From: Planctomycetota bacterium
GTDB taxonomy: Bacteria > Planctomycetota > UBA8108 > UBA1146
Direction of reading: 5' to 3'
Length of the DNA: 64,000 bases
Assembly: GCA_015664425.1 (NCBI GenBank)
Contig: DQQH01000258.1
Span: forward strand, 9,359-73,358
Of the stretch, positions 8,172-44,613 are shown piece after piece (positions within the stretch are counted from its first letter, which is position 1; every line of letters begins with the position of its first letter). Position numbers and translations under genes: made by a program. A model generated the notes under the pieces. It searched no databases, had not been told where the DNA came from, and worked only from the letters and a program-made list of their open reading frames with translations.

Positions 8172-11054
8172 ATGAGCGTTGAACCCAATCCCGGAGATAA
8201 CCTCTGGGAATCGATGGGCAAGGTCGGGTTCAGGAGCGGTCCCGACGCGGCTTCTTCCGGGCCAGATCTCGAGATTCTCCCCGACGGCGGGTCCCTCGAG
8301 GGCCATCCCTACCGCAGTTTTCTCCATCGCCTTGAACGGCCGGCGAGATACACGGGGGGAGAGCTCGGAGCGGTCGAGAAGGACCGCGCCGATCTCTCGT
8401 TCCTGCTGGCGTTCCCGGACGTCTACGAGATTGGCATGAGCCACCTCGGGTTCAAGATCCTCTATAGCCATCTCAACCAGGCCGAGGGGGTTCGGGCAGA
8501 ACGGATGTATGCTCCCTGGCTCGATCTCGAGCAGGAACTCCGTTCGCGCCAATTGCCCCTCGTCAGCCTCGAGAGCTGGAGCCCGATGACAGCCTTCGAT
8601 GTGGTCGGTTTTTCCCTCCAGTACGAGCTCACCTTCACCAACGTGCTGACGATGCTTGACCTCGGCGGAGTCCCCCTCAGGAGCGCTGACCGCGATGAAG
8701 ATGCCCCGCTTGTGATGGCTGGCGGGCCATCAGCATTCCAGCCGGAGCCGATCGCTCCCTTCATCGACGCCTTCCTCATCGGCGATGGAGAGGGGTATTT
8801 CCTGGAGACGGTCCGGGAGTGGAAGCGCCTCGAGAATGAAGGTCTGTCACGTCGGGAACGCCTCATCGCCATCAGCCAGCTCGATGGTATTTACGTCCCG
8901 GCTCTCTACAGTCTGCGCCTCGAAGAGCTCACCGGCGTGCAGGTGGTCGACCGTCCCGTCGATGAGAGAGTGCCGGAGAGGATCGCGAGAGCTCATGTTG
9001 CCGACATCAACGATTTCCCTTTCCCCACCGATGGTCCCGTCCCCAACACCGAAGTCGTCTTCGACCGCTCCTCGATAGAGATTGCACGGGGTTGCACCGA
9101 GGGCTGCCGCTTCTGTCAGGCGGGAATGATCTATCGGCCGGTCCGGGAACGGAATCCCGAGGATATCAAGACGGCAGTGCGCGACTCGCTCAAGTGCGGA
9201 GGCTTCGATGAGGTCTCATTGACCAGCCTCTCGACAGCAGACTACTCGGCGATCCAGCCGCTGGTGAGCGACATCATGCCGGAATTGAGGGACCAGCGCG
9301 TGGCGCTATCGGTCTCTTCTCTCCGGGCCTACGGTCTCACCGATAAGATGCTCGATGAGATGGCTTCGGTCAGGAACACGTCTCTCACCTTCGCACCGGA
9401 GGCGGGAACTCAGCGGATGAGAGACGTCGTCAACAAGAACATCTCGGAGGAGGATATCGCCAAGAGCGCCCACCGCATCTTCTCGCGCGGTTGGCGGAAG
9501 ATGAAACTCTACTTCATGATCGGTCTGCCGTCAGAAACGGATGAAGATGTCATCGGAATTGCCGATCTCGGCAAGCGGATGCTCGACATCGCTCTCGAAT
9601 ACCTTCCCCGCGGCAGAGCGAAGGTGACCATCTCCGTTTCCAGCCACGTCCCCAAACCATTCACGCCCTTCCAGTGGGCAGCTCAGGACAACAGCGAGGA
9701 GATCGAACGCAAGCACGACATCCTCCGCCGCACGACGCGAGTCAAGGGGTTGGAACTGCGCTGGCACGATCCGAACACCTCCTTCCTCGAAGGGGTTCTC
9801 GGGCGAGGTGACAGGGTCCTCGCCGATGTGATCGAACTGGCCTGGAGAAAAGGGTGTCGATTCGATGGGTGGTCCGATCGCCTTCGTTTCGAACTCTGGC
9901 TCGAGGCGCTCGAGGAGTGCGGTATCGAGTACGAAAAATACCTTGGAACCATCCCGGTCGATGCGAGGCTTCCATGGGACCACATCGACTGCGGAGTGGA
10001 GATGGGTTTCCTTCTCAAGGAGTACCGCAGGTCACTCAAGGATCGCACCAGCCCTCCCTGCGGAAAGCCGTTCAGAAAACTGACCCACCACACCACGCTG
10101 GAGGACGCTCTCGAGGAGAAGAAGCGTCTCGTATGCTTCGACTGCGGAATCTCTTGCGACATGACCCGGATGAAAGAGGAACGCATCGGTTTCCTCGAAA
10201 AACTCGGGTCCCATCGCTCGGGGGATCGATCCAGGACGATTACCGAGGATACCCTCGACGATGTCCGCGCGGCTGGCCACAACCGCCGGAACGAGAGAGG
10301 GACCGGAGGCAAAGCGGTTCCCTCCCACGTGGACTTCCAGGATCGTCCCTACTTCAGGTACCGCCTGAGGTTCGCAAAGTTCGGGCAGGGGCGATTCATC
10401 AGCCATCTCGACCTCAACCGGATGGTGCCTCGAGCCCTCAGGCGAGCGGGGTTCGCCCCCGCATACTCCCAGGGGTTTCATCCGATTCCCAAGCTCTCCT
10501 TCGGTCCTCCCTTAAAACTTGGGCTGGCCGGATTCTCCGAAATGGTCGAGGTCAGAATCCACGATCAGGTCGATCCATCCCAGCTGGTCGAGGCGCTCAA
10601 CAGAAATCTACCCGAAGGAATCCTGATCCGTGGAGCGCACTCTGTCGGTGAGGCGGCGCCGAAACTCTCCCGCATCACCTCGTGGGCGGACTACCTCGCC
10701 TTCATTCCCGCAGACCTCGCTTCACGGATCGGCGACGATGCTCTCGGGGAGTTGCTTGCTCTCGGGGAGATCTTGATCGAGAGAACCGACAAGAAGGGAC
10801 GACTGAAAAAGGTCGATTTACGTCCAGGTATTTCGGAAATTCGCTGGCTCGACGGTATGCCTGCAGATCTCGAAGACCTCGCCGAACTGGGGAAAGATCG
10901 AAGGTTGTTGCAACTTCGCCTGGCCCTGGAGGGAATGCTGCTGGCGCGACCACAAGAGGTGCTGGCTCTTTTCCTCGACGCCCCCCTCTGCGAGGGGATA
11001 GAAATCGTAAGGCGAAGGCTGATGCCCGCTCCTGCTGCTATCGAGGTGACCTAG
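8172..11054 (+). CDS. Radical SAM protein, TIGR03960-type N-terminal part fused to a TIGR03936/DUF2344-type C-terminal part (about 960 aa)
   Basis: CTEGCRFC is a CxxxCxxC radical-SAM cluster motif inside a B12-binding-like plus radical SAM core. The C-terminal third resembles DUF2344. The ORF opens earlier at 8049, but the ATG at 8172 (MSVEPNPG) fits better. Confidence 0.7.
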   Translation: MSVEPNPGDNLWESMGKVGFRSGPDAASSGPDLEILPDGGSLEGHPYRSFLHRLERPARYTGGELGAVEKDRADLSFLLAFPDVYEIGMSHLGFKILYSHLNQAEGVRAERMYAPWLDLEQELRSRQLPLVSLESWSPMTAFDVVGFSLQYELTFTNVLTMLDLGGVPLRSADRDEDAPLVMAGGPSAFQPEPIAPFIDAFLIGDGEGYFLETVREWKRLENEGLSRRERLIAISQLDGIYVPALYSLRLEELTGVQVVDRPVDERVPERIARAHVADINDFPFPTDGPVPNTEVVFDRSSIEIARGCTEGCRFCQAGMIYRPVRERNPEDIKTAVRDSLKCGGFDEVSLTSLSTADYSAIQPLVSDIMPELRDQRVALSVSSLRAYGLTDKMLDEMASVRNTSLTFAPEAGTQRMRDVVNKNISEEDIAKSAHRIFSRGWRKMKLYFMIGLPSETDEDVIGIADLGKRMLDIALEYLPRGRAKVTISVSSHVPKPFTPFQWAAQDNSEEIERKHDILRRTTRVKGLELRWHDPNTSFLEGVLGRGDRVLADVIELAWRKGCRFDGWSDRLRFELWLEALEECGIEYEKYLGTIPVDARLPWDHIDCGVEMGFLLKEYRRSLKDRTSPPCGKPFRKLTHHTTLEDALEEKKRLVCFDCGISCDMTRMKEERIGFLEKLGSHRSGDRSRTITEDTLDDVRAAGHNRRNERGTGGKAVPSHVDFQDRPYFRYRLRFAKFGQGRFISHLDLNRMVPRALRRAGFAPAYSQGFHPIPKLSFGPPLKLGLAGFSEMVEVRIHDQVDPSQLVEALNRNLPEGILIRGAHSVGEAAPKLSRITSWADYLAFIPADLASRIGDDALGELLALGEILIERTDKKGRLKKVDLRPGISEIRWLDGMPADLEDLAELGKDRRLLQLRLALEGMLLARPQEVLALFLDAPLCEGIEIVRRRLMPAPAAIEVT

Positions 11055-11077: not shown

Positions 11078-11314
11078 TTACCCGCAATCATTTCCGATCG
11101 CTTCGACGGGACATTCCTCCATCGCCTGTTCGCAGAGCTCTTCTTCCTCAGGATTTTTGGGCTGCTTGAAAACGTATGAATAACCCTCGTCCTCGTTCGC
11201 TCGGAAATTGTCGGGCGCGGTCGTGCGACAGAGGTCGCAATCGATGCATTCATGGTCCACGTACCATTTACCCTCGACATTTGATTCGACCTTGTTTTCA
11301 GGATCAGCCATCAT
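11078..11314 (-). CDS. Small 4Fe-4S ferredoxin
   Basis: MMADPENKVESNVEGKWYVDHECIDCDLCRTTAPDNF...CEQAMEECPVEAI carries CxxCxxC...CP. Only the C-terminal 79 aa of the 205-aa ORF look like protein. Confidence 0.75.
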   Translation of the reverse strand: MMADPENKVESNVEGKWYVDHECIDCDLCRTTAPDNFRANEDEGYSYVFKQPKNPEEEELCEQAMEECPVEAIGNDCG

Positions 11315-11567: not shown

Positions 11568-12398
11568 ATGAAGGTCACCATCGCACATAGCCCCGATTCC
11601 GATGACGCGTTCATGCACTTCGCCATCGGCGAGGGAAAAATCGATACCGGCGAATACCAGTTCGAACATCTGCTGAAGGACATCGAATCCCTCAACCTCG
11701 CGGCTCGGGAGGGAATCTACGAGGTCACTGCGATCTCGATTCATGCTTATGCCCATCTTGCCGACCGTTACGCGCTTCTCAACCACGGAGCGAGTATGGG
11801 TGAGGGGTACGGCCCCGTGGTGGTGGCGTCTCGACCCTTGACTCGCGATGATCTCGAGGGGCGAACGATTGCCATCCCCGGGGAGTGGACCAGCGCTGCC
11901 CTGTGCCTGAAGTTGTGGCTTCCGGAGGCGAAGACGATTCCTGTTGCCTTCGATGAGATCATTCCGACGATTCAGCGGGGGGACGTCGATGCTGGGGTGA
12001 TCATCCACGAGAGCCAGCTCACCTACGGAGATGAGGGCATGCACGCGATCGTTGACCTGGGAGTCTGGTGGGCAGAGGGGAACGAGGGCCTACCTCTCCC
12101 CCTGGGAGGAAATGCGATCCGTCGCGATCTCGGGGAGCACCACATCGGTAACATCTCGAGGATTTTGCGCGAGTCGATCGTCTATGCCCTCGAGCATCGG
12201 GATGAAGCCCTCGAGTACGCAGAGTGTTTCAACCGTGGGCTCACCCGGGAGCAGACGGATCGTTTCGTTGGCATGTATGTGAACCGACGGACCCTCGACT
12301 ATCGGGAAGACGGTCGCGAGGCTGTGCGTCGTTTCCTTCGCCTAGGTGTTGCCCAGGGACTGGTCCCGGAAGTGGCGGCACCGGAGTTCATCGACTAG
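11568..12398 (+). CDS. MqnA/MqnD-family menaquinone (futalosine pathway) biosynthesis protein, most like 1,4-dihydroxy-6-naphthoate synthase MqnD
   Basis: 276 aa. N-terminal MKVTIAHSPDSDDAFMHFAI resembles the MqnD SPCPNDTF motif, and the length fits PF02621. Confidence 0.65.
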   Translation: MKVTIAHSPDSDDAFMHFAIGEGKIDTGEYQFEHLLKDIESLNLAAREGIYEVTAISIHAYAHLADRYALLNHGASMGEGYGPVVVASRPLTRDDLEGRTIAIPGEWTSAALCLKLWLPEAKTIPVAFDEIIPTIQRGDVDAGVIIHESQLTYGDEGMHAIVDLGVWWAEGNEGLPLPLGGNAIRRDLGEHHIGNISRILRESIVYALEHRDEALEYAECFNRGLTREQTDRFVGMYVNRRTLDYREDGREAVRRFLRLGVAQGLVPEVAAPEFID

Positions 12399-12424
12399 CA
12401 CGTCCCTTGTGCTGGAGAGGCCCG

Positions 12425-13792
12425 ATGGCTGAGAGTGAGCCTCCCCCGACCGGCTGCACGACCACCTTCTGGGGGTGGGGTGGAGTCTCCCGTGGGGAGA
12501 GTTTCTTTCATGACCAGCTGGCAGCGGAAGTCCTCTGCCAGCTGGTGAGGGAAGTGCCCACTGCCAGTTGGTTGCCGCGAGGCGCAGGGTGTAGTTACGG
12601 CGATGCAGCCCTCAACAGTTCCGGCACCCTCCTTCGTCTCCTGGGCAGCGAGAGAATCGAACTCGACAGCGATGCCGGGCAGGTTCGCGTCGGGGCGGGA
12701 ATGCGCCTCGGAGATCTCCTTTCCCGGTTGGTCCCCCTCGGCTGGTGGGTCGGAGGGGTTCCCGGGTTTCTCGACGTCACAGTCGGCGGGATCGCTGCCG
12801 CCGACGCCCACGGCAAGGATCATCTCGGTTCCGGTTCCTTCGGTGACCAGATCGAGGAGATCGATCTGGTCACCGCCGATGGCTCCCGGAGTCGAATCAG
12901 TCGAAATCGCGATGGCGAGCTCTTCGCTGCGACGATCGGCGGGATGGGGCTCACTGGCCAGATCACCCGGCTTCTCCTGCGCCTCCAGAAGTTGCCTTCT
13001 GCCTGGATGGTGCAGACGAAGAGGAGGACGGAGACCCTGACGGAGACCTTCGACAGGCTCGAAGAGATGCTCGCTGAACACAGCCATGTCGCCGCGTGGA
13101 TCGATGGGATGGAGAGGGGTAAAAATCTCGGAAGGGGGGTCGTCTCCGGGGCCAATTTTGCAGAACGGTCGCTGCTCTCCTCGATCGGTTCAGCACGCCA
13201 TTTCAGGTGGCAGCCGACTCGACCGTTCCCGCTGGTCCCCGCCCTCTCGAGTGTGTTCACGGCACGAACGGTCCGCTGTTTCAATTCCCTCAGATGGAGT
13301 TTCTCTCCATCCGAAAAGAGAGAGGGTCTCCGCCCCATCGCCCAGGCTCTCTTCCCTCTCGAGTCCCTCAAGAGATGGAACCGACTCTACGGAGAGGCGG
13401 GCTTGTTCCAGCACCAGTGTGTTTTACCGAGGGAGGTCGCCCCAGAGGGGGTCGAGGAGATCCTGCGCACCCTTCATGAGAGCAAAAACCCGCCTTTCCT
13501 GGTGGTTCTGAAGCGTCTTGGTACCGGCACCTTCCCCCTCTCCTTCCCCCTCGATGGCTGGACTCTCAGCTGTGATCTTGCCGCCTCTCCTTCGAGCGAG
13601 GCAGTGCTCCGAGTTCTCGATGAAAGGGTTGCCGCCCTGGGAGGAAGGGTCTATCTCGCCAAGGACTCGACACTGACTCCCGCACTTCTGGAGAGGATGT
13701 ACCCTCGCCTCGGAGAGTTGCGTGAGGTCAGGAGAAGGGTCGATCCCGAGGGGAGGCTCGCCAGCGACCTCTCCCGCAGGCTGCGAATCTGA
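12425..13792 (+). CDS. DprE1-like FAD-dependent oxidase (decaprenylphosphoryl-beta-D-ribose 2'-oxidase family)
   Basis: Block-by-block similarity to M. tuberculosis DprE1: GWGGVSR, GCSYGDAA, VTVGGIAAADAHGKDH..GSFGD, ELFAATIGGMGLTG, WNRLYGEAGLFQHQCVLP, GRVYLAKDS...VRRRVDP. The equivalent of DprE1 Cys387 is conserved (GWTLSCDL). Start is the ATG at 12425 inside the longer ORF. Confidence 0.75.
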   Translation: MAESEPPPTGCTTTFWGWGGVSRGESFFHDQLAAEVLCQLVREVPTASWLPRGAGCSYGDAALNSSGTLLRLLGSERIELDSDAGQVRVGAGMRLGDLLSRLVPLGWWVGGVPGFLDVTVGGIAAADAHGKDHLGSGSFGDQIEEIDLVTADGSRSRISRNRDGELFAATIGGMGLTGQITRLLLRLQKLPSAWMVQTKRRTETLTETFDRLEEMLAEHSHVAAWIDGMERGKNLGRGVVSGANFAERSLLSSIGSARHFRWQPTRPFPLVPALSSVFTARTVRCFNSLRWSFSPSEKREGLRPIAQALFPLESLKRWNRLYGEAGLFQHQCVLPREVAPEGVEEILRTLHESKNPPFLVVLKRLGTGTFPLSFPLDGWTLSCDLAASPSSEAVLRVLDERVAALGGRVYLAKDSTLTPALLERMYPRLGELREVRRRVDPEGRLASDLSRRLRI

Positions 13793-13817: not shown

Positions 13818-14621
13818 TCAGAAAGTCACCGAGACTCCGAAGAAATGACCGTCGAGGTCGAGGTCGACCCTTGCCGGGGAGTTTTCGACCACCCCATCGA
13901 AGAACAGACCGATGCGCCGCGTGCCGATGATGAGTTCGCTGTTTTCGTTGATGCTCCATTGGGCGGTGAGTTCCACGTCGACCAAGCCGATCTCGTAGTC
14001 GGTCACGCTGTCGAGAACGGGAATGGAGACCTCTGCCCCGACTCGGGTTCCCAGCGGCAGATCGATGTCTCCCCTGGCTCCGATGACAGGAACGGGCAGC
14101 AACTCATCAAGTTCACGAAACGCATCGGATCCGGTGGTGTCATCGACGCGCAGATTGACGAGGAAGGTGTTCAACCCAACGACGACCGCAACGCGGACAT
14201 GTTCGCTGCTGAGGAGATCGAAGCCGAGTGTTCCCCGGATGCTTCTGAGGTCGAGATCCGAAGCGATATCCCCGGTGAACTCTGTTCCCAGGAAATTTCC
14301 GGTGAAGGAGCCCGGGGAACTGGTGTTGTAGTCGAAGGCGGTCAGGCGCAATTCGAGTGGCGCGATTCCAGCGGAGAATTTCAGGTAGGGGAGGTTCTTG
14401 TTGCCCGTAATCCCACCTTCATTTCCGAAGTGGAAAACACTGCTGATGGGCAAAGTGGAAGTGGCCTCGGTGTCGGCAGTTCCCTCGAAGTTGAAGTGGG
14501 AGTGGACAACGGCTGCCTCGGCGTGGAGCCCGATCCAGGGGGAGTCGCCAGGTAGGCTGCAGGAGCAACAGAGGAACGGCAGGAAGATGATCGCCAGCAG
14601 CGGAAAACGCCTGGTTTTCAT
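13818..14621 (-). CDS. Outer-membrane beta-barrel protein with signal peptide
   Basis: MKTRRFPLLAIIFLPFLCCSCS signal follows RBS GGGAGG. Alternating beta-strand pattern and a C-terminal ...VSVTF aromatic terminus. The internal ATG at 14621 was chosen. Confidence 0.5.
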   Translation of the reverse strand: MKTRRFPLLAIIFLPFLCCSCSLPGDSPWIGLHAEAAVVHSHFNFEGTADTEATSTLPISSVFHFGNEGGITGNKNLPYLKFSAGIAPLELRLTAFDYNTSSPGSFTGNFLGTEFTGDIASDLDLRSIRGTLGFDLLSSEHVRVAVVVGLNTFLVNLRVDDTTGSDAFRELDELLPVPVIGARGDIDLPLGTRVGAEVSIPVLDSVTDYEIGLVDVELTAQWSINENSELIIGTRRIGLFFDGVVENSPARVDLDLDGHFFGVSVTF

Positions 14622-14770: not shown

Positions 14771-17700
14771 ATGATTCAACAGGCTGAATTCGGGCCCGCC
14801 AGCCTGTGGGCAGGCCTCCTTATCCTCAACTTCCTGGTCACGCCGAACTCGATCGATGCTGGCGAGGAACAATACGAACAATTCGAGCGCGAAGTGCGCC
14901 CCCTCTTCGTCGAGCATTGTTACCGCTGTCACAGCCTCAGCTCCGGAAAGCAGAAGGGGGGATTGCTCCTCGATTCCCGCGATTCCCTCCGCAACGGAGG
15001 AGACAGCGGTTCTGCCATCGTCGAAGGAGACCCCGCCGCCAGTCTGCTGATCAAGGCGGTCAAGCAGTTGGACCCGGACCTGTCGATGCCTCCTGAAGCC
15101 AAACTTGCCCCATCTGAAATCGTCGCGCTGGAACGCTGGATTCTCTCCGGTGCTCCTGATCCGCGGGACGAGTCAGCGGCAGTGGTGGTGAAGAAGGAGA
15201 TCGACTGGCAAAAGGCTCGCGAGCACTGGGCTTTCCAGAAGATGGCAGACCCCCAGCCGCCGTCCCTCGCCGCCGACGAATGGTCCCGTGACGCTATCGA
15301 TCAGTTCGTTCTCGCACGGCTGAGAGAAAAGGGACTTGCTCCTGCTCCGGGTGCCAATCGGCGGACCTTGATCCGCAGGGCGACCTTTGATCTGGCGGGG
15401 CTGCCTCCAACTCCCGAGGAGATCGATCATTTCCTCGCAGATGACCAGCCTGGAGCGTTCGAGCGCATCGTCGACCGCCTGCTCGCTTCTCCCCGCTACG
15501 GCGAGCGCTGGGCGCGCCTCTGGCTCGATGTAGTCCGCTACGCAGATTCCAACGGCCTCGACGAGAACCTCGCTTATGGCAACGCCTGGAGGTACCGGGA
15601 CTACGTCATCAACGCCTTCTCCAGCGATATTCCCTTCGACCGATTGGTGCTGGAGCAACTCGCAGGAGACCTTCTGCCGGTTCCCGATGACATCGAACGC
15701 TGGAAGGGTCAGCTGATTGCGACCGGGTTTCTCGCCATGGGCCCGAAAATGCTCGCAGAACAGGACAAGGAAAAGTTAGCCATCGACATCGTCGATGAGC
15801 AACTCGACGTGACGGCGACAGCATTCCTCGGCATGACTGTCGGATGCGCTCGTTGCCATGATCACAAATATGATCCGATTCCGACCCGTGACTACTACGC
15901 TCTCGCCGGTATCTTTCGCTCTACCAGCACGATGGAGAACTTCAACCACGTCTCGCGCTGGCGGGAACTCTCCCTGGCGACGGCGGATGAGGTCGAGGTG
16001 CGCAAGAAGTGGCAAGTCGAGATCGATGTCGCCCGCAAGAGAGCCAAGGAAATCGAAGCGGACCTGGCGGCAGGACAGCTGGGGCGCTGGCGCAAGCATG
16101 CCGCTCAGGACCTGCTCGCTGCCTCGAAGGGACGCAAGAGCGCGGTTTACTTCGAGGCGGAGAGTGCAGAGAAGACAAACCTTCACATCGATTCGAGCCA
16201 CTGGGGTTCACCGGAAGTCACCATTCTTCACACCACCAAGGGGGGTGAGCAGTTTGCCCGCTGGTCGGTGGAGATCCCCCACTCGCGGCGCTGGCGCCTC
16301 GATATTCGCTATGCATCCAAGGAGAGTCGCCCGATGCGCCTGTTCATCGATGGCGAGCAGATTGGTGATCCGGTTCTGGGGTCGAAGACAGGAGATTTCT
16401 TTCCCAAGGGTCAGCGCTGGGAGCAGGTCGCGACACTCGACCTCAGCAGCGGTATCCACCAGCTGGAATTGAAGGGAACAGGGGCTTCGATACCCCATCT
16501 CGATCGCCTCCGGTTCGTCCCCGCCGGCGAGAAGGACGCCACGACCTGGCTCCCTTCTGACACCGGCTCCAGCCCGCCGGCGGTTGTGGCGGGCTGGATC
16601 GATTTCCTCGATCGATCCTCACGCCAGAAGGACCCGCTCTTTGGCACCTGGTTGCGCTTCCTGCAGCTGGAAGAGGGTGGATTCGTCGATGGGGCTCGGG
16701 AAATCTGTGACGATGTCTCCGCCGAGCTGGCGGCTGGCAGCGATGGGGTCTCTCCCCTTCTTCGGCTGGTCGTCGATGGCCTGCCTCCCGAGAGCCTGCG
16801 AGAGGCCGCGGGGCGCTTTCAGGGGGTCCTCTCTGCCCTCGACCTGGCCTCGGAGAAGCGGCCAGTTGGCAAGGATGGAAAGAAGGCAGCAACCCTTCAG
16901 GACCCCGAACTGGAACGACTGAACGGCCAATTAATCGCGCCAGGGGGTCCCTTCGGGGAACCTCTCGCCCTCGGAGAGAAGGCGATCCCGGCTGAGATGA
17001 GGCAACCGCTCGAAGAGGTGCGTGGGGAGATCACTCTTCTGGAAGAATCGGAGCCCGATCCCATCTCGACGGCGCTCGGGGTTGCCGACGGTAAGGTTGG
17101 CGACCTGCCGGTGCACATTCGTGGGAACCACTTGAACCTGGCGAAGGAAGTGACGCCGCGGGGTGTGCTCGAGATTATCTCCCACTGCGTCCCCACACCG
17201 GTCTTCGGAGGGGAGGAGAGCGGTCGACTGGAACTTGCTAGATGGATAGTTCACGAGGAGAACCCCCTGACCGCCAGAGTCATCGTCAACCGGATCTGGC
17301 AGGGCCATTTCGGCACCGGAATCGTCGAGACTCCATCGAACTTCGGATTCCGTGGTGGGACCCCCAGCCACCCGCTCCTTCTCGATCGCCTCGCTCGCGA
17401 TTTCATCTCCGATGGTTGGTCCCTCAAGAGACTGCACAGGAGGATCTTGCTCTCTGCCACGTGGCAGCAGGAGACTCGGGTGAACGAGCGCGCCAGAGAA
17501 ATCGACCCCGGGAACCGTCTCCTCTGGAGCCAGAATCGTCGTCGACTCGAGGCGGAACTGGTTCGTGACGCGCTGCTCGCCATCACTGGTGACCTCGATC
17601 TGGCGATGGGCGGCACTCTCCTGCCAACAGCCAATCGTGGCTACGTCACAAACGATCAGTCGGGAAACCAGGCCAGGTACGACGCCCCCCGAAGGGCGAT

Positions 17701-18103
17701 CTACTTGCCGATCATTCGCAACGCCATGTTCGACCTCTTCAGTTCCTTCGATTTCAATGACCCATCCGCGCCGATGGCACGTCGCCCCTCCACCATCATC
17801 GCCCACCAGGCGCTCTTCTTCCTCAACAGTCCTCTGGTCCTCAGTACCAGCGAACGTCTCGCGAAGGAATTGCTCGGCCTGGAAATTTTGGACGCAGCCG
17901 AGCGCATCGATTGGCTCTCGGAAAGATTGCTCGGGAGGCGAGCGACGGCAGAAGAAAAGCAACGGGCCGAACTGTATCTCGCGGCTGCGAGAGCGGCCCT
18001 TCTCGGTGAGGCAGGCGAAGAGGAGGAGAAAGTGGATCTCTCTCTCTGGCAGAGTTACTGCCAGGCGGTCCTCGCTTCCAATGAGTTCATCTACTTCGAC
18101 TGA
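14771..18103 (+). CDS. Planctomycete-type PSCyt1 / PSCyt2 (DUF1549) / PSD1 (DUF1553) multidomain protein with an inserted beta-sandwich domain
   Basis: N-terminal haem-binding-like CYRCHSLSSGKQKGG, central GCARCHDHKYDPI and C-terminal PSD1-like segments. 1110 aa. Confidence 0.8.
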   Translation: MIQQAEFGPASLWAGLLILNFLVTPNSIDAGEEQYEQFEREVRPLFVEHCYRCHSLSSGKQKGGLLLDSRDSLRNGGDSGSAIVEGDPAASLLIKAVKQLDPDLSMPPEAKLAPSEIVALERWILSGAPDPRDESAAVVVKKEIDWQKAREHWAFQKMADPQPPSLAADEWSRDAIDQFVLARLREKGLAPAPGANRRTLIRRATFDLAGLPPTPEEIDHFLADDQPGAFERIVDRLLASPRYGERWARLWLDVVRYADSNGLDENLAYGNAWRYRDYVINAFSSDIPFDRLVLEQLAGDLLPVPDDIERWKGQLIATGFLAMGPKMLAEQDKEKLAIDIVDEQLDVTATAFLGMTVGCARCHDHKYDPIPTRDYYALAGIFRSTSTMENFNHVSRWRELSLATADEVEVRKKWQVEIDVARKRAKEIEADLAAGQLGRWRKHAAQDLLAASKGRKSAVYFEAESAEKTNLHIDSSHWGSPEVTILHTTKGGEQFARWSVEIPHSRRWRLDIRYASKESRPMRLFIDGEQIGDPVLGSKTGDFFPKGQRWEQVATLDLSSGIHQLELKGTGASIPHLDRLRFVPAGEKDATTWLPSDTGSSPPAVVAGWIDFLDRSSRQKDPLFGTWLRFLQLEEGGFVDGAREICDDVSAELAAGSDGVSPLLRLVVDGLPPESLREAAGRFQGVLSALDLASEKRPVGKDGKKAATLQDPELERLNGQLIAPGGPFGEPLALGEKAIPAEMRQPLEEVRGEITLLEESEPDPISTALGVADGKVGDLPVHIRGNHLNLAKEVTPRGVLEIISHCVPTPVFGGEESGRLELARWIVHEENPLTARVIVNRIWQGHFGTGIVETPSNFGFRGGTPSHPLLLDRLARDFISDGWSLKRLHRRILLSATWQQETRVNERAREIDPGNRLLWSQNRRRLEAELVRDALLAITGDLDLAMGGTLLPTANRGYVTNDQSGNQARYDAPRRAIYLPIIRNAMFDLFSSFDFNDPSAPMARRPSTIIAHQALFFLNSPLVLSTSERLAKELLGLEILDAAERIDWLSERLLGRRATAEEKQRAELYLAAARAALLGEAGEEEEKVDLSLWQSYCQAVLASNEFIYFD

Positions 18104-18107
18104 TTGG

Positions 18108-19517
18108 ATGTGTTCAGTGCCAGGACAGTCCTGCGGGTGTGAAATCAGCCGAAGAGAACTTCTCCGCAGGGGGAGCGCGGGCTTCGGGATGCTCGCTCTC
18201 TCTGGCCTCATCGGGGAAAGCATGCTCGCCGATGAGGGACTGATCTCTCCCCCCCATCACCCGGCGAGGGCGAAGAGGGTGATCTTCCTCTTCATGCATG
18301 GCGGGCCGTCCCAGGTCGATACCTTCGACTACAAACCCCTCCTCGAGCGGGACAACGGCAAGCCCCTGCCATTCTCCAAGCCGCGGGTCACCTTTGCCAA
18401 GACCGGAAACCTGCTGAAATCTCCTTGGGAATTCCGTCAGTACGGTGAATCGGGAATGTGGGTGAGCGACCTCTTCCCCAACGTCGCCACCTGTGTCGAT
18501 GACATTTGTTTCCTCAAGAGTCTTCATGGCACCAACGATGCCCACGGTGGAGCTTTGCTCGCCCTGCACACCGGTTCGGATACCTTCGTTCGCCCAAGCA
18601 TGGGGTCCTGGGCCATCTACGGTCTCGGAAGCGAGAATGAAAACCTCCCCGGTTTCATCACCATCTGCCCGACTCTGGGGCATGGCGGGGTCAACAACTG
18701 GTCTTCCGCCTTCCTCCCCGCGAGTTTCCAGGGGACGCCGATCGGGCATGCTGGTATTCCCGCAAGGAACGCAACCATCAACCATCTGAGCAACAAGCAC
18801 TGGCATCCGGATGTCCAGAAACTCCAGCTGGGCCTGATGCAGGACATCAATCTGGAACACCTCGGGAGCAAGGGGACAGATGACGCCCTCGAGGCTCGCA
18901 TCCGTTCCTTCGAGATGGCTTTCCGGATGCAGGCAGAGGCTCCGATGGTGATGGATCTGTCTGGCGAGACGAAGGAAACACTGGAACTCTACGGAATCGA
19001 TGATTCGAAGACCGAGAATTTCGGGCGGCAGTGCTTGATGGCCCGTCGCTTCGCCGAATCAGGGGTGCGTTTTATTCAATGCACTCACAGTTACAAGTGG
19101 GACCAGCACTCCAACCTCAAGAGCGGACATCAGAACAACGCTCTCGAAGTGGACAGGCCGATCGCGGGCCTGCTCAAGGATCTCAAGTCCCGTGGCCTCC
19201 TCGAAGACACCCTCGTTCTGTGGGGAGGGGAGTTTGGTCGAACTCCGACCGCTCAGGACGGCAACGGACGTGATCACAACCCCCATGGGTTCACGATGTG
19301 GATGGCTGGAGGCGGGGTTCGTGGAGGTAATAGTTACGGAGAGACCGACGACTACGGTTATTATGCTTCGAGAGACAAGGTGCACGTCAACGACCTCCAC
19401 GCGACTCTTCTGCATCTGCTTGGAATCGATCATGAGAAACTGACCTTCCGTCACGCTGGCCGGGATTTCCGGCTTACCGACGTTGCCGGGGAAGTTGTTC
19501 ACGACATCATCGCTTGA
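18108..19517 (+). CDS. DUF1501 (sulfatase-like) protein with twin-arginine signal
   Basis: Tat motif SRRELLRRGSAGFGMLALSGL. FLFMHGGPSQVDTFDYKP is typical of DUF1501. Starts 5 nt after the PSCyt gene stop. Confidence 0.8.
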   Translation: MCSVPGQSCGCEISRRELLRRGSAGFGMLALSGLIGESMLADEGLISPPHHPARAKRVIFLFMHGGPSQVDTFDYKPLLERDNGKPLPFSKPRVTFAKTGNLLKSPWEFRQYGESGMWVSDLFPNVATCVDDICFLKSLHGTNDAHGGALLALHTGSDTFVRPSMGSWAIYGLGSENENLPGFITICPTLGHGGVNNWSSAFLPASFQGTPIGHAGIPARNATINHLSNKHWHPDVQKLQLGLMQDINLEHLGSKGTDDALEARIRSFEMAFRMQAEAPMVMDLSGETKETLELYGIDDSKTENFGRQCLMARRFAESGVRFIQCTHSYKWDQHSNLKSGHQNNALEVDRPIAGLLKDLKSRGLLEDTLVLWGGEFGRTPTAQDGNGRDHNPHGFTMWMAGGGVRGGNSYGETDDYGYYASRDKVHVNDLHATLLHLLGIDHEKLTFRHAGRDFRLTDVAGEVVHDIIA

Positions 19518-27823: not shown

Positions 27824-28334
27824 TTCATCGTCCTCTTCCTTCAAGGAGAGGGTGAAGCAAGAGTCTGTATTCACGGCTCCCTGGGTCGGTTCAGCTGTCG
27901 GGAGTCGTGGTGTCGGGGAGAATCGCAGGTCGCCCCCATTTCCAGTTCTCCTGATCGTCTCCTGCGTCCGATACAGCAGATCGGGGTCCGGAAAGAGACA
28001 TTCTGCGAGCGCTCCTCCTGTTAGGTCGGGTGTTCAGGGGAAGTCTGAAGAAAAGACTGTCGAGCGCCTGGGAATTCGTGTTCCCGGGGGTTCGTGCTTT
28101 TCCGGGAACTCATGTTTCCGGGGAACCAAATTCGGGGATCAGATTCATGGAATTCGGCAGGCACCTGTCGCGGGGAGTTCCGGCCCAGCCAGCGCCCGAC
28201 GTTCATTCAGTACCTGCTCACCCCGAGAGGTCAGTTACGCGTGCCGGGGTTTTGCCCAGATCTCGAAGTGCAATGTCTCGAGATTGTGTCCCGGAACTGT
28301 CCTGGTACAGACAGCCGGATCGGAGGTACAGGGC

Positions 28335-30026
28335 GTGAGCAAGTCGATCGGCCAAATCCTGAAGGAAAAGGGTTGGGTCACCGAAGAGGGGATCCAGAAG
28401 GGCCTCGAGTATCAGAACGCGAACTCCTGCAAACTCGGTGACGCCCTGGTGAGACTCGGCATCTGCAGCCAGGAGCAGGTGACTCGATCGCTGGCGCTCC
28501 ATTTTCAGATGCCGTTCGCCAACCTGTCGAAACACGCAATCCCTCAGGAATTGATCGACATGGTGCCGAAGGATGTCGCCCTCGAGCACAAGATTGTTCC
28601 TGTCGCCAAGAAGGGTCGAAGCCTGGTGATCGCTCTCAGCGATCCCCTCGATTTCTTCACGATGGACAACCTCAGATTCATCCTCTCGACCGAGGTGGAG
28701 CCCGCCCTGGCGACACCAGCGGCGGTGGACGAGGCCCTCGACGAGTACTACCGTCTCACCGGCGGCTACGACTCCGTTCTGGGCGGTGATGCGGCCGAGG
28801 CCGACGTCGAGTTCGGCCGCGGAGATTACTCCGGAGATGACGCTGAGGCCAACGATGCGCCGGTGATCAAACTGGTGCACATGCTCATCGCCAACGCCCT
28901 CAAGGAGCGCGCCTCCGATATCCACATCGAACCGATGGAGAAGGAACTCCAGGTCCGGTACCGGGTCGACGGCATCTTGCACATCAAGGACTCGCCGCCG
29001 AAGAAACTCCAGGGCCCGGTGATCTCGAGGATCAAGATCATGTCCCAGATGGACATGGCAGAGAAACGTCGCCCGCAGGATGGCCGCATCAAGTTGCGCC
29101 TGCACGGCAGGGAGATCGACCTCCGTGTTTCGATCCTGCCATCGGTGCATGGCGAGAGCGTCGTAATGAGGATTCTCGACAAGGAGAAGGGGCTCGTCGA
29201 TCTGGAGGTCCTCGGCTTCCATGAATCCGACCTCGATCGGTTCAACCGAATCATCAAGCGGCCCAACGGAATCTTCCTCGTCACCGGCCCAACCGGTAGC
29301 GGAAAGACGACCACCCTCTACGCCGCTCTCAAGACGTTGAACCAGCCGAACGTGAAAATCATCACCGCCGAGAACCCCATCGAATACAACATCACCGGAA
29401 TCAACCAGTCGGAAGTGAGACACGGGATCGGTCTCGACTTCTCGCGGATTTTGCGTGCGATGATGCGTCAGGCACCCAACATCATCCTGGTTGGAGAAAT
29501 TCGTGACCGTGAAACAGCGGACATCGCCGTTCAAGCGGCGCTTACGGGGCACCTCGTCTTCTCCACCCTTCACACCAACGATGCACCATCTGCACTGACG
29601 CGTTTGATCGACATGGGCGTCAAGCCGTTCCTGGTTGCTTCGGCTGTGATGGCGATCATGGGCCAGCGCCTGCTGAGAACCCTGTGCTCGAATTGCAAGG
29701 AACCATACGATCCGACAGACACCGAACTCCGCCAGATTGGCCTGACGCGGGGAGATCTGGGAGAATCGAACGTCTGCCGTCCAGTCGGCTGCAACCAGTG
29801 CAGCGAAGGATACTTCGGTCGACGCGGAATCTACGAACTCCTGGAAATGTCCGGCGATCTCCGGGAACTGACTTTCAATAAGACCCCGACGAAGGACATC
29901 CGAACTAAGGCGATCAACGAGGGTATGGTCACGCTACAACAGGACGCGGTTCGAAAGCTCCTGGCTGGCCAGACCACGATCGAAGAAATCCTGCGGGTGA
30001 CCCACTCGTCCGAATTCGCAAATTAG
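28335..30026 (+). CDS. GspE/PilB-family type IV pilus / type II secretion ATPase, paralog 1
   Basis: N-terminal T2SSE_N-like domain. Walker A GPTGSGKTTT, Asp box, His box and tetracysteine CSNC...CNQC. A GTG start at 28335 was chosen; the upstream part of the ORF is not protein-like. Confidence 0.8.
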   Translation: MSKSIGQILKEKGWVTEEGIQKGLEYQNANSCKLGDALVRLGICSQEQVTRSLALHFQMPFANLSKHAIPQELIDMVPKDVALEHKIVPVAKKGRSLVIALSDPLDFFTMDNLRFILSTEVEPALATPAAVDEALDEYYRLTGGYDSVLGGDAAEADVEFGRGDYSGDDAEANDAPVIKLVHMLIANALKERASDIHIEPMEKELQVRYRVDGILHIKDSPPKKLQGPVISRIKIMSQMDMAEKRRPQDGRIKLRLHGREIDLRVSILPSVHGESVVMRILDKEKGLVDLEVLGFHESDLDRFNRIIKRPNGIFLVTGPTGSGKTTTLYAALKTLNQPNVKIITAENPIEYNITGINQSEVRHGIGLDFSRILRAMMRQAPNIILVGEIRDRETADIAVQAALTGHLVFSTLHTNDAPSALTRLIDMGVKPFLVASAVMAIMGQRLLRTLCSNCKEPYDPTDTELRQIGLTRGDLGESNVCRPVGCNQCSEGYFGRRGIYELLEMSGDLRELTFNKTPTKDIRTKAINEGMVTLQQDAVRKLLAGQTTIEEILRVTHSSEFAN

Positions 30027-30072
30027 ACGACCATTTCTCCGGGTGCAGGCCCGGATCAAGGTGAGGTGAACG

Positions 30073-31782: not shown

Positions 31783-31871
31783 CGAAACGAACCGGGGGGA
31801 ACTCCCGGTAACGAGCGACAGCTAGCCACACTAATGAGAGGTGTGGGTTAGCGAGGACCGAAGGAGCCGAG

Positions 31872-33113
31872 ATGGCTGTTTTCGAGTATGAAGCGATCAC
31901 TCCGAGCGGCAGCAAGGTTCGCCGTTCTGTCGAAGCTGATAATCAGCAGGATGCCCTCAAGAAGATTCGTGGTCAGGGGATGCGTCCCACGAAGATGAAA
32001 GAGAAGAAGGGTGCCGCTGGGATCGCTGGCGCCGGTGGAGACATCGAGAAGAAGAAATTCCGGATTGGGGCAATCTTCGACCGCATCAAACAACAGGACA
32101 TTGTTCAATTCACCCAACAGATGGCGACACTCCAGGATGCAGGACTCCCCATCGTCCGGTCATTGAAGATCCTCTCCGGTCAGATGAGGCAAGGCAGGTT
32201 CCGCTCCCAACTCGAAAAGGTCACCGATGACGTCGAAAGTGGTAGCACCTTTTCCGAGGCGCTCGCGAAGTTCCCGAGGACTTTCAACAACCTCTTTGTC
32301 GCCATGATCAAAGCCGGGGAAGCCGGCGGTGTCCTTGATCTGATTCTGCAGCGGCTCTCTGATTTCCAGGAGAAATCGATGAAGTTGAGGAAGAAGGTCA
32401 AGGGCGCGATGGTGTACCCGATTGCGGTCATCTGCGTCGCTGCCGGAATCCTGGGCTTCATCATGACCACGGTCATCCCCCAGTTTCAGAAGATGTTCGA
32501 CGACATGGGAACGACCCTTCCTGCGCCGACCCAGGCACTGCTCGCATTCTCCAATGCCATCTCCACTTACTGGTATCTTGCACCTCTGGTCGTCTTCGGG
32601 GTGGTTGGTTTGATCAAGGCGCTGGCTAGAACCGAGAAGGGGGGGCTTGCTCTCGATCGGTTCAAGTTGACCGCACCCATCTTCGGGCAGATCGTCAAGA
32701 AATCGACGATTTCGCGCTTCTGCCGGACTCTGGGGACCCTGATCTCTTCTGGCGTACCGATCCTCGAGGCGCTGGACATCGTCCGGCAGGCCGTCGGAAA
32801 CAAGGTGATCGCCAACGCCATCTCCGATGTTCACGGGTCGATACGAGAAGGGGAGACGATCGCTGAACCTCTCGGCCAGTCGGGGGTCTTCGACCCGCTG
32901 CTGGTGAACATGATCGACGTCGGCGAGGAAACGGGCGAACTGGACAAGATGCTCTCGAAGATCGCAGACAACTACGATCTCGATGTCGACGTTCTGGTCG
33001 ATTCGCTGTCGAGCCTGCTCGAGCCTGTTCTGATCGTGGGTATGGGAATCGCGGTCGGCTTCATCGTCATCGCGCTCTTCATGCCGCTACTCTCGATCAT
33101 TACCAGCATCTAG
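31872..33113 (+). CDS. pilC: Type II secretion system F / PilC-family inner-membrane platform protein
   Basis: Duplicated GspF domains (LSEALAKFPRTF..., ...ADNYD) with three TM regions. 413 aa. Confidence 0.85.
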   Translation: MAVFEYEAITPSGSKVRRSVEADNQQDALKKIRGQGMRPTKMKEKKGAAGIAGAGGDIEKKKFRIGAIFDRIKQQDIVQFTQQMATLQDAGLPIVRSLKILSGQMRQGRFRSQLEKVTDDVESGSTFSEALAKFPRTFNNLFVAMIKAGEAGGVLDLILQRLSDFQEKSMKLRKKVKGAMVYPIAVICVAAGILGFIMTTVIPQFQKMFDDMGTTLPAPTQALLAFSNAISTYWYLAPLVVFGVVGLIKALARTEKGGLALDRFKLTAPIFGQIVKKSTISRFCRTLGTLISSGVPILEALDIVRQAVGNKVIANAISDVHGSIREGETIAEPLGQSGVFDPLLVNMIDVGEETGELDKMLSKIADNYDLDVDVLVDSLSSLLEPVLIVGMGIAVGFIVIALFMPLLSIITSI

Positions 33114-43505: not shown

Positions 43506-43620
43506 CGTTCCTGCTCCTTCAGCGATCTATTCAAAGGGGGCTCTCGACAGGACTTGCCCTCCAGAGCGACATCGAGTCTACCCCAGCGTTGATGAGGGGG
43601 GAAGCAAACCTGCAATGGCC

Positions 43621-44604: not shown

Positions 44605-44613
44605 CTCCTCCAG

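What the first reader, a model, noticed from the sequence alone, without database searches (positions are those of the whole stretch)
11568..13792. DprE1-like FAD oxidase with the conserved active-site cysteine, directly downstream of an MqnA/MqnD-family menaquinone gene
The 455-aa protein aligns block by block with mycobacterial DprE1, including the position of Cys387 (GWNICVDF in M. tuberculosis, GWTLSCDL here). DprE1 normally works with DprE2 to epimerise decaprenyl-phospho-ribose to arabinose for arabinan, a pathway not expected in this lineage. No DprE2-like SDR is nearby. The gene starts 26 nt after a futalosine-pathway MqnA/D-family gene. It may therefore oxidise a different polyprenyl-linked or naphthoate-related substrate.
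Basis: partly seen in the sequence, partly recalled or inferred. Interest (0 to 1): 0.5.

Follow-up and report, generated by a model that had tools for sequence, protein, structure and literature searches.

The report
Orphan DprE1-like flavoenzyme beside MqnD
A marine planctomycete carries a fast-evolving relative of the tuberculosis drug target DprE1 that has lost the partner gene (DprE2) it is normally paired with and has a partly rebuilt active site; its position after a vitamin-K2 (menaquinone) gene is inherited gene order, and the "conserved cysteine" is one residue out of place.

Summary
Both genes are real. 11568-12398 encodes an MqnD-type protein. After a 26-nt spacer, 12425-13792 encodes a 455-aa, full-length DprE1 homologue (PDB E~1e-66; model TM 0.81-0.88 to Mtb DprE1).

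The cysteine claim is wrong. Mtb Cys387 aligns with Ser382. Cys383 sits in the Val388 column and occurs only in the three closest sequences.

DprE1/DprE2/UbiA clusters are common outside Actinobacteria, including in other Planctomycetota, so the pathway is not unexpected in this phylum.

What is unusual is the clade. About 20 protein clusters, all from marine Planctomycetota MAGs where named, form a long-branch group (bootstrap 100%). They score 276-343 bits on NCBI's DprE1 model (cut-off 500; canonical homologues 433-615). They keep the catalytic residues (K418, H132, K134, Q334, Q336, Y60) but replace residues invariant elsewhere (R58C, D318E, Y335H, R421T, Y314L). No DprE2, UbiA or GT-C gene lies nearby.

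A sister lineage has MqnD-DprE1-DprE2 with canonical residues. The MqnD adjacency therefore predates the loss of DprE2 and is most simply inherited synteny, not evidence for naphthoate chemistry.

Most likely this is a functional, DprE2-uncoupled DprE1 derivative with altered substrate or partner. The substrate is unknown. Moderate interest.

The parts
11568..12398 (+). MqnD-type gene (276 aa; 1,4-dihydroxy-6-naphthoate synthase family, PF02621)
   Evidence: Pfam E 3e-68. Best solved relatives are AF1704 (E 2e-73) and T. thermophilus MqnD (E 4e-56). It is 70-87% identical across the lineage, with only 5 lineage-specific positions.
12399..12424 (+). 26-nt spacer with an RBS-like GGAGAGG (12414-12420); no terminator
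   Evidence: Read directly from the sequence. No terminator-like site lies between the genes. The spacer is 20-54 nt in other lineage loci.
12425..13792 (+). DprE1-like FAD oxidoreductase (455 aa), a divergent DprE2-uncoupled clade ('DprE1L')
12590..12592 (+). Codon for Cys56, the clade signature replacing Arg58, which is invariant in canonical DprE1 (GxGRSYGD becomes GAGCSYGD)
   Evidence: Lineage: Cys in 10 of 11 and in 21 of the 23 sequences with a residue there, otherwise Phe. Others: Arg in 81/81 and 110/113. The position matches the covalent-flavin His of AldO and 6HDNO, as inferred from the alignment coordinates.
13568..13573 (+). Codons for Ser382 (the Mtb Cys387 position) and Cys383 (the Mtb Val388 position)
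   Evidence: Both lie in predicted strand 378-386.
13661..13663 (+). Codon for Lys413, equivalent to the Mtb catalytic Lys418 (YLAKDS)
   Evidence: conserved in 8/8 clade sequences and 113/113 others.
11078..11311 (-). Single-cluster ferredoxin (77 aa, Fer4_13), divergent from MqnD and syntenic throughout the lineage and its sister
8172..11054 (+). TIGR03960/TIGR03936 radical-SAM fusion (960 aa), part of the conserved synteny block
13818..14621 (-). Convergent 267-aa lipoprotein / beta-barrel-like gene that closes the MqnD-DprE1L unit; it sits where the sister lineage has the DprE2-like SDR
   Evidence: Called gene. No Pfam or NCBIfam hit. Sister loci have an SDR overlapping the DprE1 stop by 4 nt.

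Best explanation
The gene encodes a functional FAD-dependent DprE1-family dehydrogenase. It descends from a canonical DprE1 that worked with an adjacent DprE2.

In the ancestor of one marine planctomycete lineage the adjacent DprE2 gene disappeared from the locus. The oxidase then evolved rapidly. It kept the catalytic core that oxidises a ribofuranosyl-type secondary alcohol at the flavin (Lys418, His132, Lys134, Gln334, Gln336, Tyr60, Trp230 equivalents). It replaced pocket residues that are invariant in every DprE2-coupled homologue (R58C, R119L, Y314L, H315F, D318E, Y335H, F369M, R421T).

It therefore most likely still performs a DprE1-type 2'-OH to 2'-keto oxidation on a membrane-associated pentofuranosyl (polyprenyl-phosphate-linked or similar) substrate. 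The difference is an altered substrate or downstream partner, not the canonical DPR to DPX to DPA epimerisation with a dedicated DprE2.

Its position 26 nt after MqnD is probably co-transcription. That position is inherited gene order, not a biochemical link to naphthoate synthesis.

Shown: homology, fold, residue pattern, clade, synteny history and purifying selection. Inferred: the chemistry, the loss of the DprE2 partnership genome-wide, and co-transcription.
For: - Homology and fold: full-length homology to solved DprE1. AF2 model pLDDT 94, with Mtb DprE1 as top Foldseek hits at TM 0.81-0.88 against 0.70 for alditol oxidase.
- Catalytic and pocket residues: Y60, H132, K134, W230, L317, Q334, Q336, L363, V365, K367, Y415 and K418 are all conserved.
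- Separate clade: NJ bootstrap 200/200 and 100/100. The profile search is bimodal, 554-733 bits for about 20 Planctomycetota clusters against 418 bits or less for all others.
- NCBIfam DprE1 model: 276-343 bits for the clade against 433-615 for canonical homologues from six other groups.
- Signature substitutions at positions invariant elsewhere: R58 81/81 and D318 81/81 and 113/113. Several of these positions (R58, Y314, H315, F369, C387) are listed as ligand-contact residues in a docking study (PMC9525719).
- Sister loci L133 and L134 have MqnD-DprE1-SDR. The DprE1 there has canonical residues and the SDR is DprE2-type (PRK07102 or DprE2 as top NCBIfam hits, as for L028).
- P0146 is the NJ sister of the clade.
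- No SDR, UbiA or AftD hit in the window or in 224 kb of lineage loci.
- Among homologues of the sister-lineage SDR, nothing falls between 52 and 69% identity, the range expected for an ordinarily evolving lineage orthologue. Both lower-identity hits examined (P0265, P0231) sit in UbiA-DprE1-SDR clusters.
- dN/dS is 0.11-0.20 in close pairs, so the gene is under purifying selection, yet dN is 4-10 times that of MqnD. It is the least conserved enzyme in the neighbourhood.
Against: - Only 64 kb of this genome, and 20 kb or less around each relative, could be inspected. A DprE2-type reductase, UbiA-type phosphoribosyltransferase and GT-C could lie elsewhere.
- Neither the lineage nor its sister has UbiA near the locus, so unlinked pathway genes are normal in this group.
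- Five actinobacterial DprE1 loci also lack an adjacent DprE2, so adjacency is not obligatory.
- A lineage DprE2 that had evolved as fast as DprE1L would be hidden among the 40-48% hits.
- No substrate-bound DprE1 structure was consulted. Assigning the substituted residues to substrate recognition rests on inhibitor and docking contacts.
- Sisterhood of P0146 has only 56% NJ bootstrap.
Confidence: 0.5

Rival explanations
1. It is an ordinary DprE1. It oxidises polyprenyl-phospho-ribofuranose as the first half of the epimerisation to the arabinofuranose donor. DprE2, the UbiA-type phosphoribosyltransferase and the GT-C arabinosyltransferase are simply encoded elsewhere in the genome.
For: All catalytic residues are intact. 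The fold is DprE1. The gene descends from a DprE1-DprE2 pair. UbiA is unlinked even in the sister lineage. Lone DprE1 genes that score as canonical exist in Actinomycetota, for example L015 at 615 bits. DprE1/E2 systems are widespread in Gram-negative glycan synthesis.
Against: Residues invariant in every DprE2-linked homologue examined (R58, D318; also R421 and Y335) are replaced and then fixed in the clade. Model scores fall 100-300 bits below canonical homologues of any phylum. The branch is long and evolution is fast. No candidate orthologue of the sister-lineage SDR appears at the expected identity.
Confidence: 0.3
2. It is functionally tied to menaquinone. One version is that it oxidises a ribose-derived hydroxyl of a futalosine-pathway intermediate, supplying the 2'-keto group that MqnD's retro-aldol step needs. 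Another is that it is co-expressed with MqnD because menaquinone re-oxidises its flavin.
For: The gene follows MqnD on the same strand after a 20-54-nt spacer with no terminator in every lineage locus. The clade has lost conserved arginines, which might reflect loss of a phosphate-binding site (inference). From my own knowledge, Mtb DprE1 can pass electrons to menaquinone.
Against: The adjacency already exists in the sister lineage with a canonical DprE1 translationally coupled to DprE2. All 28 MqnD loci outside these lineages lack it. MqnD here is canonical and highly conserved, with 5 lineage-specific positions. DprE1L evolves 4-10 times faster, which is unlike a core cofactor-pathway enzyme. 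No paper links the two.
Confidence: 0.08
3. It is a relic under relaxed constraint after loss of its partner, on the way to pseudogenisation and with no specific function.
For: It is the fastest-evolving enzyme in the neighbourhood. Canonical invariant residues are lost. One locus (L131) has a shortened gene call of 389 aa.
Against: The reading frame is intact and full length in about 20 divergent clusters. dN/dS is 0.11-0.20. The catalytic residues and about 100 positions are invariant within the clade. The new residues are themselves conserved: H330 24/24, L116 24/24, E313 23/24.
Confidence: 0.05

Closest known systems
Mycobacterial DprE1 (decaprenylphosphoryl-beta-D-ribose 2'-oxidase, Rv3790; PDB 4FDN, 4AUT and others)
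   Same: Two-domain VAO-type fold (TM 0.81-0.88). About 31-37% identity over the full length. Same catalytic residues (Lys418, His132, Lys134, Gln334/336, Tyr60, Trp230, Tyr415). No signal peptide (read from the N-terminal sequence, not predicted).
   Different: Cys387 is Ser, so covalent benzothiazinone inhibition is not expected. Asn385 is Thr, as in most non-mycobacterial homologues. R58C, R119L, Y314L, H315F, D318E, Y335H, F369L/M and R421T. No adjacent dprE2. Below NCBI's equivalog cut-off (343 against 500 bits).
Non-actinobacterial DprE1/DprE2 pairs of polyprenyl-phospho-pentofuranose (three-component) glycosylation systems (PMC11127046); examples here are L008, L013, L028, L135 and L136
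   Same: Same protein family. The Cys387 column is Ala, Thr or Ser in these too. This includes Planctomycetota members. The direct ancestor of the window gene was of this kind (sister loci L133 and L134).
   Different: Those genes are followed directly by a DprE2-type SDR and usually flanked by UbiA (about 73 of 80 loci). They keep R58, D318, R421 and Y335 and score 433-615 bits. The window clade has none of these properties.
Alditol oxidase, sugar-1,4-lactone oxidases and 6-hydroxy-D-nicotine oxidase (VAO family with an 8-alpha-histidyl flavin)
   Same: Same superfamily (PF01565 and PF04030). The G-x-G-[H/R/C]-S motif aligns. The clade's Cys56 occupies the position of their covalent histidine (inference coordinates).
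   Different: Far weaker similarity (E 1e-14 to 1e-20; TM 0.70). TIGR01678 and TIGR01679 scores of 55-72 bits fall well short of cut-offs near 300-400. There is no histidine at the flavinylation site.

Membership tests
DprE1 (NCBIfam NF053785 equivalog; EC 1.1.98.3) | Full-length homology and a VAO-type two-domain fold matching solved DprE1 | tested here: met
   PDB phmmer E 8e-67 over residues 13-455. AF2 pLDDT 94.2. Foldseek TM 0.81-0.88 to Mtb DprE1.
DprE1 (NCBIfam NF053785 equivalog; EC 1.1.98.3) | Score at or above the curated equivalog cut-off (500 bits) | tested here: not met
   343 bits. Clade members score 276-333 bits. DprE2-linked homologues from other phyla score 433-570, some being truncated queries, and the lone actinobacterial L015 scores 615.
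DprE1 (NCBIfam NF053785 equivalog; EC 1.1.98.3) | Catalytic and flavin-proximal residues (Lys418, His132, Lys134, Gln334, Gln336, Tyr60, Trp230, Tyr415) | tested here: met
   All are conserved in 8/8 clade sequences and 113/113 others.
DprE1 (NCBIfam NF053785 equivalog; EC 1.1.98.3) | Residues invariant across canonical DprE1 (Arg58, Asp318; nearly invariant Arg421, Tyr335, Phe/Tyr314) | tested here: not met
   Here they are C56, E313, T416, H330 and L309. These are fixed in the clade, whereas R58 and D318 are 81/81 in the others.
DprE1 (NCBIfam NF053785 equivalog; EC 1.1.98.3) | Cys387, the benzothiazinone-reactive cysteine. This is a mycobacterial feature and does not define the family. | tested here: not met
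   Ser382 aligns with Cys387, and Cys383 aligns with Val388. The column is Ala, Thr or Ser in 120/120 homologues.
DprE1 (NCBIfam NF053785 equivalog; EC 1.1.98.3) | Genomic pairing with a DprE2-type SDR (and usually a UbiA-type phosphoribosyltransferase) | tested here: not met
   None in the 64-kb window or in 224 kb of lineage loci. Present in about 73 of 80 other loci. The rest of the genome was not available.
DprE1 (NCBIfam NF053785 equivalog; EC 1.1.98.3) | Oxidation of decaprenyl- or polyprenyl-phospho-ribose to the 2'-keto product | not testable with these tools
   Needs an enzyme assay with FPR, GGPR or DPR.
MqnD (1,4-dihydroxy-6-naphthoate synthase, PF02621) - the upstream gene | Pfam VitK2_biosynth match, with closest solved relatives being MqnD rather than MqnA | tested here: met
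   E 3e-68. AF1704 at 2e-73 and T. thermophilus MqnD at 4e-56; no MqnA chain at E 0.01 or better. 64 columns are invariant with MqnD homologues from other lineages.
MqnD (1,4-dihydroxy-6-naphthoate synthase, PF02621) - the upstream gene | Presence of the rest of the futalosine pathway (MqnA, MqnB or MTAN, MqnC, MqnE) in the genome | not testable with these tools
   None in the window.
Sugar-1,4-lactone / alditol oxidases (TIGR01678, TIGR01679) | Score above the subfamily cut-off and a covalent-flavin histidine in GxGHS | tested here: not met
   55-72 bits against cut-offs of 292-397. The motif is GAGCS.

The most novel reading that the evidence does not exclude
After losing DprE2, this planctomycete clade turned DprE1 into a stand-alone flavoenzyme with new chemistry. 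One form would be a VAO-fold enzyme that tethers FAD through Cys56, which sits exactly where relatives carry the covalent histidine; as far as I know, an 8-alpha-S-cysteinyl link is unknown in this fold. Another would be a 2'-oxidase acting on a non-phosphorylated ribofuranosyl substrate. That substrate could even be a futalosine-pathway intermediate, with the 2'-keto product feeding the co-transcribed MqnD.
Probability: 0.1. Interest if true: 0.7.

Novelty: new variant of a known kind. Interest (0 to 1): 0.35.

Why it matters
DprE1 is a leading tuberculosis drug target and has almost always been studied as half of the DprE1/DprE2 epimerase.

This clade is a natural, well-sampled example that lost the adjacent reductase, kept the catalytic core and re-tuned about ten pocket residues. 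It offers a ready-made experiment on which residues encode DPR recognition or DprE2 coupling. It may also reveal a new lipid-linked keto-sugar or pentofuranose route in planctomycete envelopes.

For annotation, proteins of this clade should not be named "decaprenylphospho-beta-D-ribofuranose 2-oxidase" automatically. Adjacency to mqnD should not be read as a menaquinone function.

Tried and rejected
- Conserved Cys387: rejected. The alignment is off by one.
- DprE2, UbiA or AftD in the window: nothing found. I used phmmer with two DprE2, two UbiA and one AftD query, then three more SDR queries at E up to 10. Pfam scans covered 26 window proteins.
- MqnD-DprE1 adjacency as a widespread operon: rejected. 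It is confined to MqnD sequences at least 68% identical to the window's, and is absent from 28 more distant MqnD loci.
- Literature link between DprE1 and futalosine or Planctomycetes: none.
- Covalent Cys-FAD as a universal clade feature: weakened. Two members have Phe at that position.
- Hunt for a relocated DprE2 using the sister-lineage SDR as query: only two close relatives appeared (70-72%), and the one checked (P0226) has the MqnD-DprE1-SDR arrangement. Both lower hits checked (P0265, P0231) were in canonical UbiA-DprE1-SDR clusters. This is inconclusive for a fast-evolving orthologue.
- Terminator or promoter between the genes: none above shuffle expectation.
Whole-genome content could not be examined.
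- A first look-up with the ORF started one codon early (12422) failed. The true start is 12425.
Full report
**What is there**

The window is a ~60% G+C segment of a marine or hydrothermal-plume Planctomycetota MAG. The 455-aa product is identical to P0001, [quoted passage not shown], accessions HIA27267.1 and HIN81015.1. The same contig appears in the Kilo Moana and other vent or plume metagenomes.

Two co-oriented genes occupy the reported interval.
- 11568-12398 encodes 276 aa and matches PF02621 at E 3e-68.
- 12425-13792 encodes 455 aa and matches PF01565 and PF04030.
- They are separated by 26 nt containing GGAGAGG four bases before the ATG.
- No terminator-like site lies between them.

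The upstream protein is MqnD-like rather than MqnA-like. Its only solved relatives at E 0.01 or better are AF1704 (2e-73) and Thermus thermophilus MqnD (4e-56).

**Is it DprE1-like?**

Yes.
- phmmer against the PDB gives E 8e-67 to 2e-66 against M. smegmatis and M. tuberculosis DprE1 over residues 13-455. The next family, alditol oxidase, is at 5e-20.
- An AlphaFold2 model built on 53 homologues has pLDDT 94.2 and pTM 0.92.
- Its 49 best Foldseek hits in the PDB are all DprE1, with the near-full-length chains at TM 0.80-0.88. An alditol oxidase follows at 0.70.
- NCBI's DprE1 equivalog model aligns end to end but scores 343 bits, below its 500-bit cut-off.

**The cysteine**

The printed alignment pairs Mtb P-G-W-N-I-C387-V-D-F with D-G-W-T-L-S382-C383-D-L without gaps.
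- I checked the numbering by counting back from the row ends. It also places Mtb Lys418 on Lys413 and His132/Lys134 on His129/Lys131.
- The Cys387 position is therefore Ser. The window's Cys occupies the Val388 column.
- In 120 homologues the Cys387 column is Ala 102, Thr 11, Ser 7.
- The neighbouring Cys exists only in the three closest sequences. Other clade members have Met, Leu or Ile there.
- Both residues lie in predicted strand 378-386, so they should face opposite sides (inference).
- From my own knowledge, natural Ser or Ala at 387 gives benzothiazinone resistance without loss of activity. The residue is not catalytic.

**Is the pathway unexpected here?**

No. A scan of one genome per GTDB species returned 80 loci. 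They came from Actinomycetota, Alpha-, Beta-, Gamma- and Deltaproteobacteria, Bacteroidia, Chlamydiae, Acidobacteria, Dehalococcoidia, Fimbriimonadia and Planctomycetota.
- In about 73 of them the DprE1 homologue is directly followed by a DprE2-like SDR and usually flanked by UbiA. This includes Planctomycetaceae L028.
- Two further examples are L135 (Planctomycetota) and L136.
- This agrees with the description of DprE1/E2 as auxiliary epimerases of widespread polyprenyl-phospho-pentofuranose glycosylation systems (PMC11127046).

**What is unusual**

The window protein belongs to a discrete clade.
- NJ bootstrap support is 200/200 with 97 sequences and 100/100 with 127.
- A profile of seven members gives a bimodal result across 5.8 billion proteins. 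About 20 clusters score 554-733 bits, one truncated sequence scores 469, and all others score 418 or less. Every named member of the high-scoring group is a Planctomycetes or Planctomycetota MAG.
- Clade members score 276-343 bits on NCBI's DprE1 model. DprE2-linked homologues from other phyla score 433-570, and a lone actinobacterial one scores 615.
- The mean corrected distance from the clade to all others (1.41) far exceeds the distance among the others, which span many phyla (0.87). Distances within the clade (0.83) are as large as those between phyla.

Catalytic and flavin-proximal residues are intact: Y60, H132, K134, W230, L317, Q334, Q336, L363, V365, K367, Y415 and K418.

Positions that are invariant or nearly so in canonical homologues are replaced, and the replacements are then fixed in the clade.

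| Mtb position | Canonical homologues | Clade |
|---|---|---|
| R58 | R in 81/81 | C (F in two members) |
| R119 | R or K in 72/81 | L |
| Y226 | Y | H |
| Y/F314 | F or Y | L |
| H315 | H | F |
| D318 | D in 81/81 and 113/113 | E |
| Y335 | Y | H |
| F369 | F | M or L |
| R421 | R in 76/81 | T |

Several of these positions (R58, Y314, H315, F369, C387) appear among ligand-contact residues in a docking study of Mtb DprE1 (PMC9525719).

Cys56 falls where alditol oxidase (His46) and 6-hydroxy-D-nicotine oxidase (His72) attach FAD covalently. This follows from the alignment coordinates (query 52 to chain 45 for 2vfr; query 54 to chain 69 for 2bvf) combined with my recollection of those residue numbers. 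It is a lead, not a result, and two clade members carry Phe there.

**Gene neighbourhood and its history**

Every clade locus recovered shows Fer4(-) / MqnD / DprE1L. These are the window, L005, L006, L070, L089-L097, L107, L127, L131 and L132. Most also have the TIGR03960 radical-SAM gene upstream and PSCyt-DUF1553/DUF1501 downstream.

A metagenome scan with MqnD as bait split cleanly.
- All 12 loci with MqnD at least 70% identical belong to this synteny block. Eleven have DprE1L downstream, and the twelfth (L128) ends inside MqnD.
- All 28 loci with MqnD at most 60% identical (or only a truncated match) lack DprE1L within 6 kb. In the 11 longer ones inspected, MqnD is often followed by a convergent gene.

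The decisive observation is the sister lineage.
- L133 (Planctomycetota GCA_039028735.1; MqnD 69% identical to the window's) and L134 (68%) carry Fer4(-), a GT4 gene, MqnD, DprE1 and then an SDR.
- The SDR start overlaps the DprE1 stop by 4 nt.
- That SDR is DprE2-type. Its best NCBIfam hits are PRK07102 and then the DprE2 model, the same pattern as the SDR of the canonical planctomycete cluster L028.
- The sister DprE1 keeps R58, F314, D318, Y335, Ala at the 387 column, and R421.
- It is the NJ sister of the clade, with 56% bootstrap.

The simplest history is as follows. A DprE1-DprE2 pair already lay downstream of MqnD. In the ancestor of the window's lineage the SDR left the locus. The oxidase then accumulated its signature substitutions and evolved fast.

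**Selection**

Nei-Gojobori estimates for close pairs give dN/dS of 0.11-0.20 for DprE1L, against 0.01-0.05 in most pairs for MqnD (0.29 in one nearly identical pair). The dN of DprE1L is 4-10 times higher in most pairs.

Compared with the window, DprE1L is 38-43% identical in lineage members where the neighbouring genes are much better conserved.

| Protein | Identity to the window's copy (across the more distant lineage loci) |
|---|---|
| DprE1L | 38-43% |
| MqnD | 70-75% |
| Radical-SAM protein | 65-66% |
| Glutamate dehydrogenase | 71-75% |
| DUF1501 | 75-78% |
| PSCyt | 45-47% |
| Beta-barrel lipoprotein | 24% |

The gene is therefore functional but weakly constrained. This pattern resembles envelope-associated proteins more than a core cofactor-pathway enzyme.

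**Search for the missing partners**

- phmmer with DprE2, UbiA and AftD queries from several phyla found nothing in the window or in 224 kb of lineage loci.
- Pfam scans of the rest of the window show housekeeping genes only.
- Using the sister-lineage SDR as query, the database holds two close relatives (70-72%). The one checked (P0226/L134) has the same MqnD-DprE1-SDR arrangement.
- Identity then drops to 51% or less. Both hits examined below that level sit in UbiA-DprE1-SDR clusters.
- No orthologue appears at the 52-69% identity expected for an ordinarily evolving lineage copy. A fast-evolving copy could be hidden, so genome-wide loss is inferred, not shown.

**Interpretation**

Best supported (about 0.5): a functional DprE1-type flavin dehydrogenase that has been uncoupled from DprE2 and has a remodelled pocket. 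It would still carry out a 2'-OH oxidation on a pentofuranosyl, probably lipid-linked, substrate, but not as part of the canonical DprE1/DprE2 epimerase.

Main rival (about 0.3): canonical function, with the partner genes encoded elsewhere.

Menaquinone-linked function (about 0.08): weakened by three points. The adjacency predates the divergence and includes a canonical, DprE2-coupled DprE1. It is absent from all other MqnD lineages. The two genes evolve at very different rates.

Decay (about 0.05): contradicted by purifying selection and by conservation of the new residues.

**Verdict**

The genes, the homology and the absence of DprE2 are right. The cysteine claim is wrong.

A changed role is plausible, but the reasons given do not hold: neither the cysteine, nor an "unexpected" pathway, nor the Mqn neighbourhood.

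I rate this a new variant of a known kind and of moderate interest.

Noticed in passing
L006:6891-10577 vs L094:1-3705: Two lineage contigs are 93.6% identical in DNA through the MqnD gene. Detectable nucleotide similarity ends at the MqnD stop codon. DprE1L is only 51% identical in protein, and similarity resumes at 71% in the downstream histidine-kinase gene. This suggests a recombination breakpoint or allelic replacement at the MqnD/DprE1L junction, or a chimeric assembly.
   Followed up: partly
L015, L035, L049, L051, L083 (Actinomycetota, mostly Streptosporangiaceae): These DprE1 homologues have no DprE2-like SDR or UbiA within 10 kb. L015 scores 615 bits, which is fully canonical, and has an AftD-like GT-C 5 kb away. 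Unlinked DprE1 genes therefore also exist in actinobacteria.
   Followed up: partly
window 8172-11054 (+) and 11078-11311 (-): A 960-aa fusion of TIGR03960 (B12-binding radical SAM) with TIGR03936 (DUF2344) is convergent with a 77-aa single-cluster ferredoxin. The pairing is conserved across the lineage and its sister. The function of this radical-SAM family is unknown.
   Followed up: no
window 13818-14621 (-): A 267-aa protein has a lipoprotein-like signal (…LCCSCS…) and a C-terminal aromatic residue, and looks like a beta-barrel. It has no Pfam or NCBIfam match. It is extremely divergent between lineage members (24% identity where MqnD is 74%).
   Followed up: partly
window 14771-18103 (+) and 18189-19517 (+): A planctomycete-typical PSCyt1/PSCyt2/PSD1 (DUF1549/DUF1553) cytochrome-c-domain protein is paired with a DUF1501 sulfatase-like protein. 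It is followed by a PA14-domain protein and an alpha-L-fucosidase with CBM domains.
   Followed up: no
window 27852-33113 (+): Two consecutive MshEN-T2SSE ATPases (724 and 569 aa) are followed by a T2SSF platform protein. This is a type IV pilus / type II secretion-like module with a duplicated ATPase.
   Followed up: no
window 39382-40452 (-): A Sua5/YciO/YrdC (TsaC-type) domain is fused to a low-molecular-weight phosphotyrosine phosphatase domain in one 356-aa protein.
   Followed up: no
window 42213-48664: A 2-oxoacid dehydrogenase gene set: E2 (430 aa), an E1-beta-like protein (327 aa) and E3 (491 aa) on the minus strand, facing a fused E1 alpha-beta protein (884 aa ORF) on the plus strand.
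   Followed up: no
L131:7719-8001: In one lineage contig the DprE1L gene call is only 389 aa and starts 281 nt after MqnD. This is either a mis-called start or an N-terminally truncated copy.
   Followed up: no
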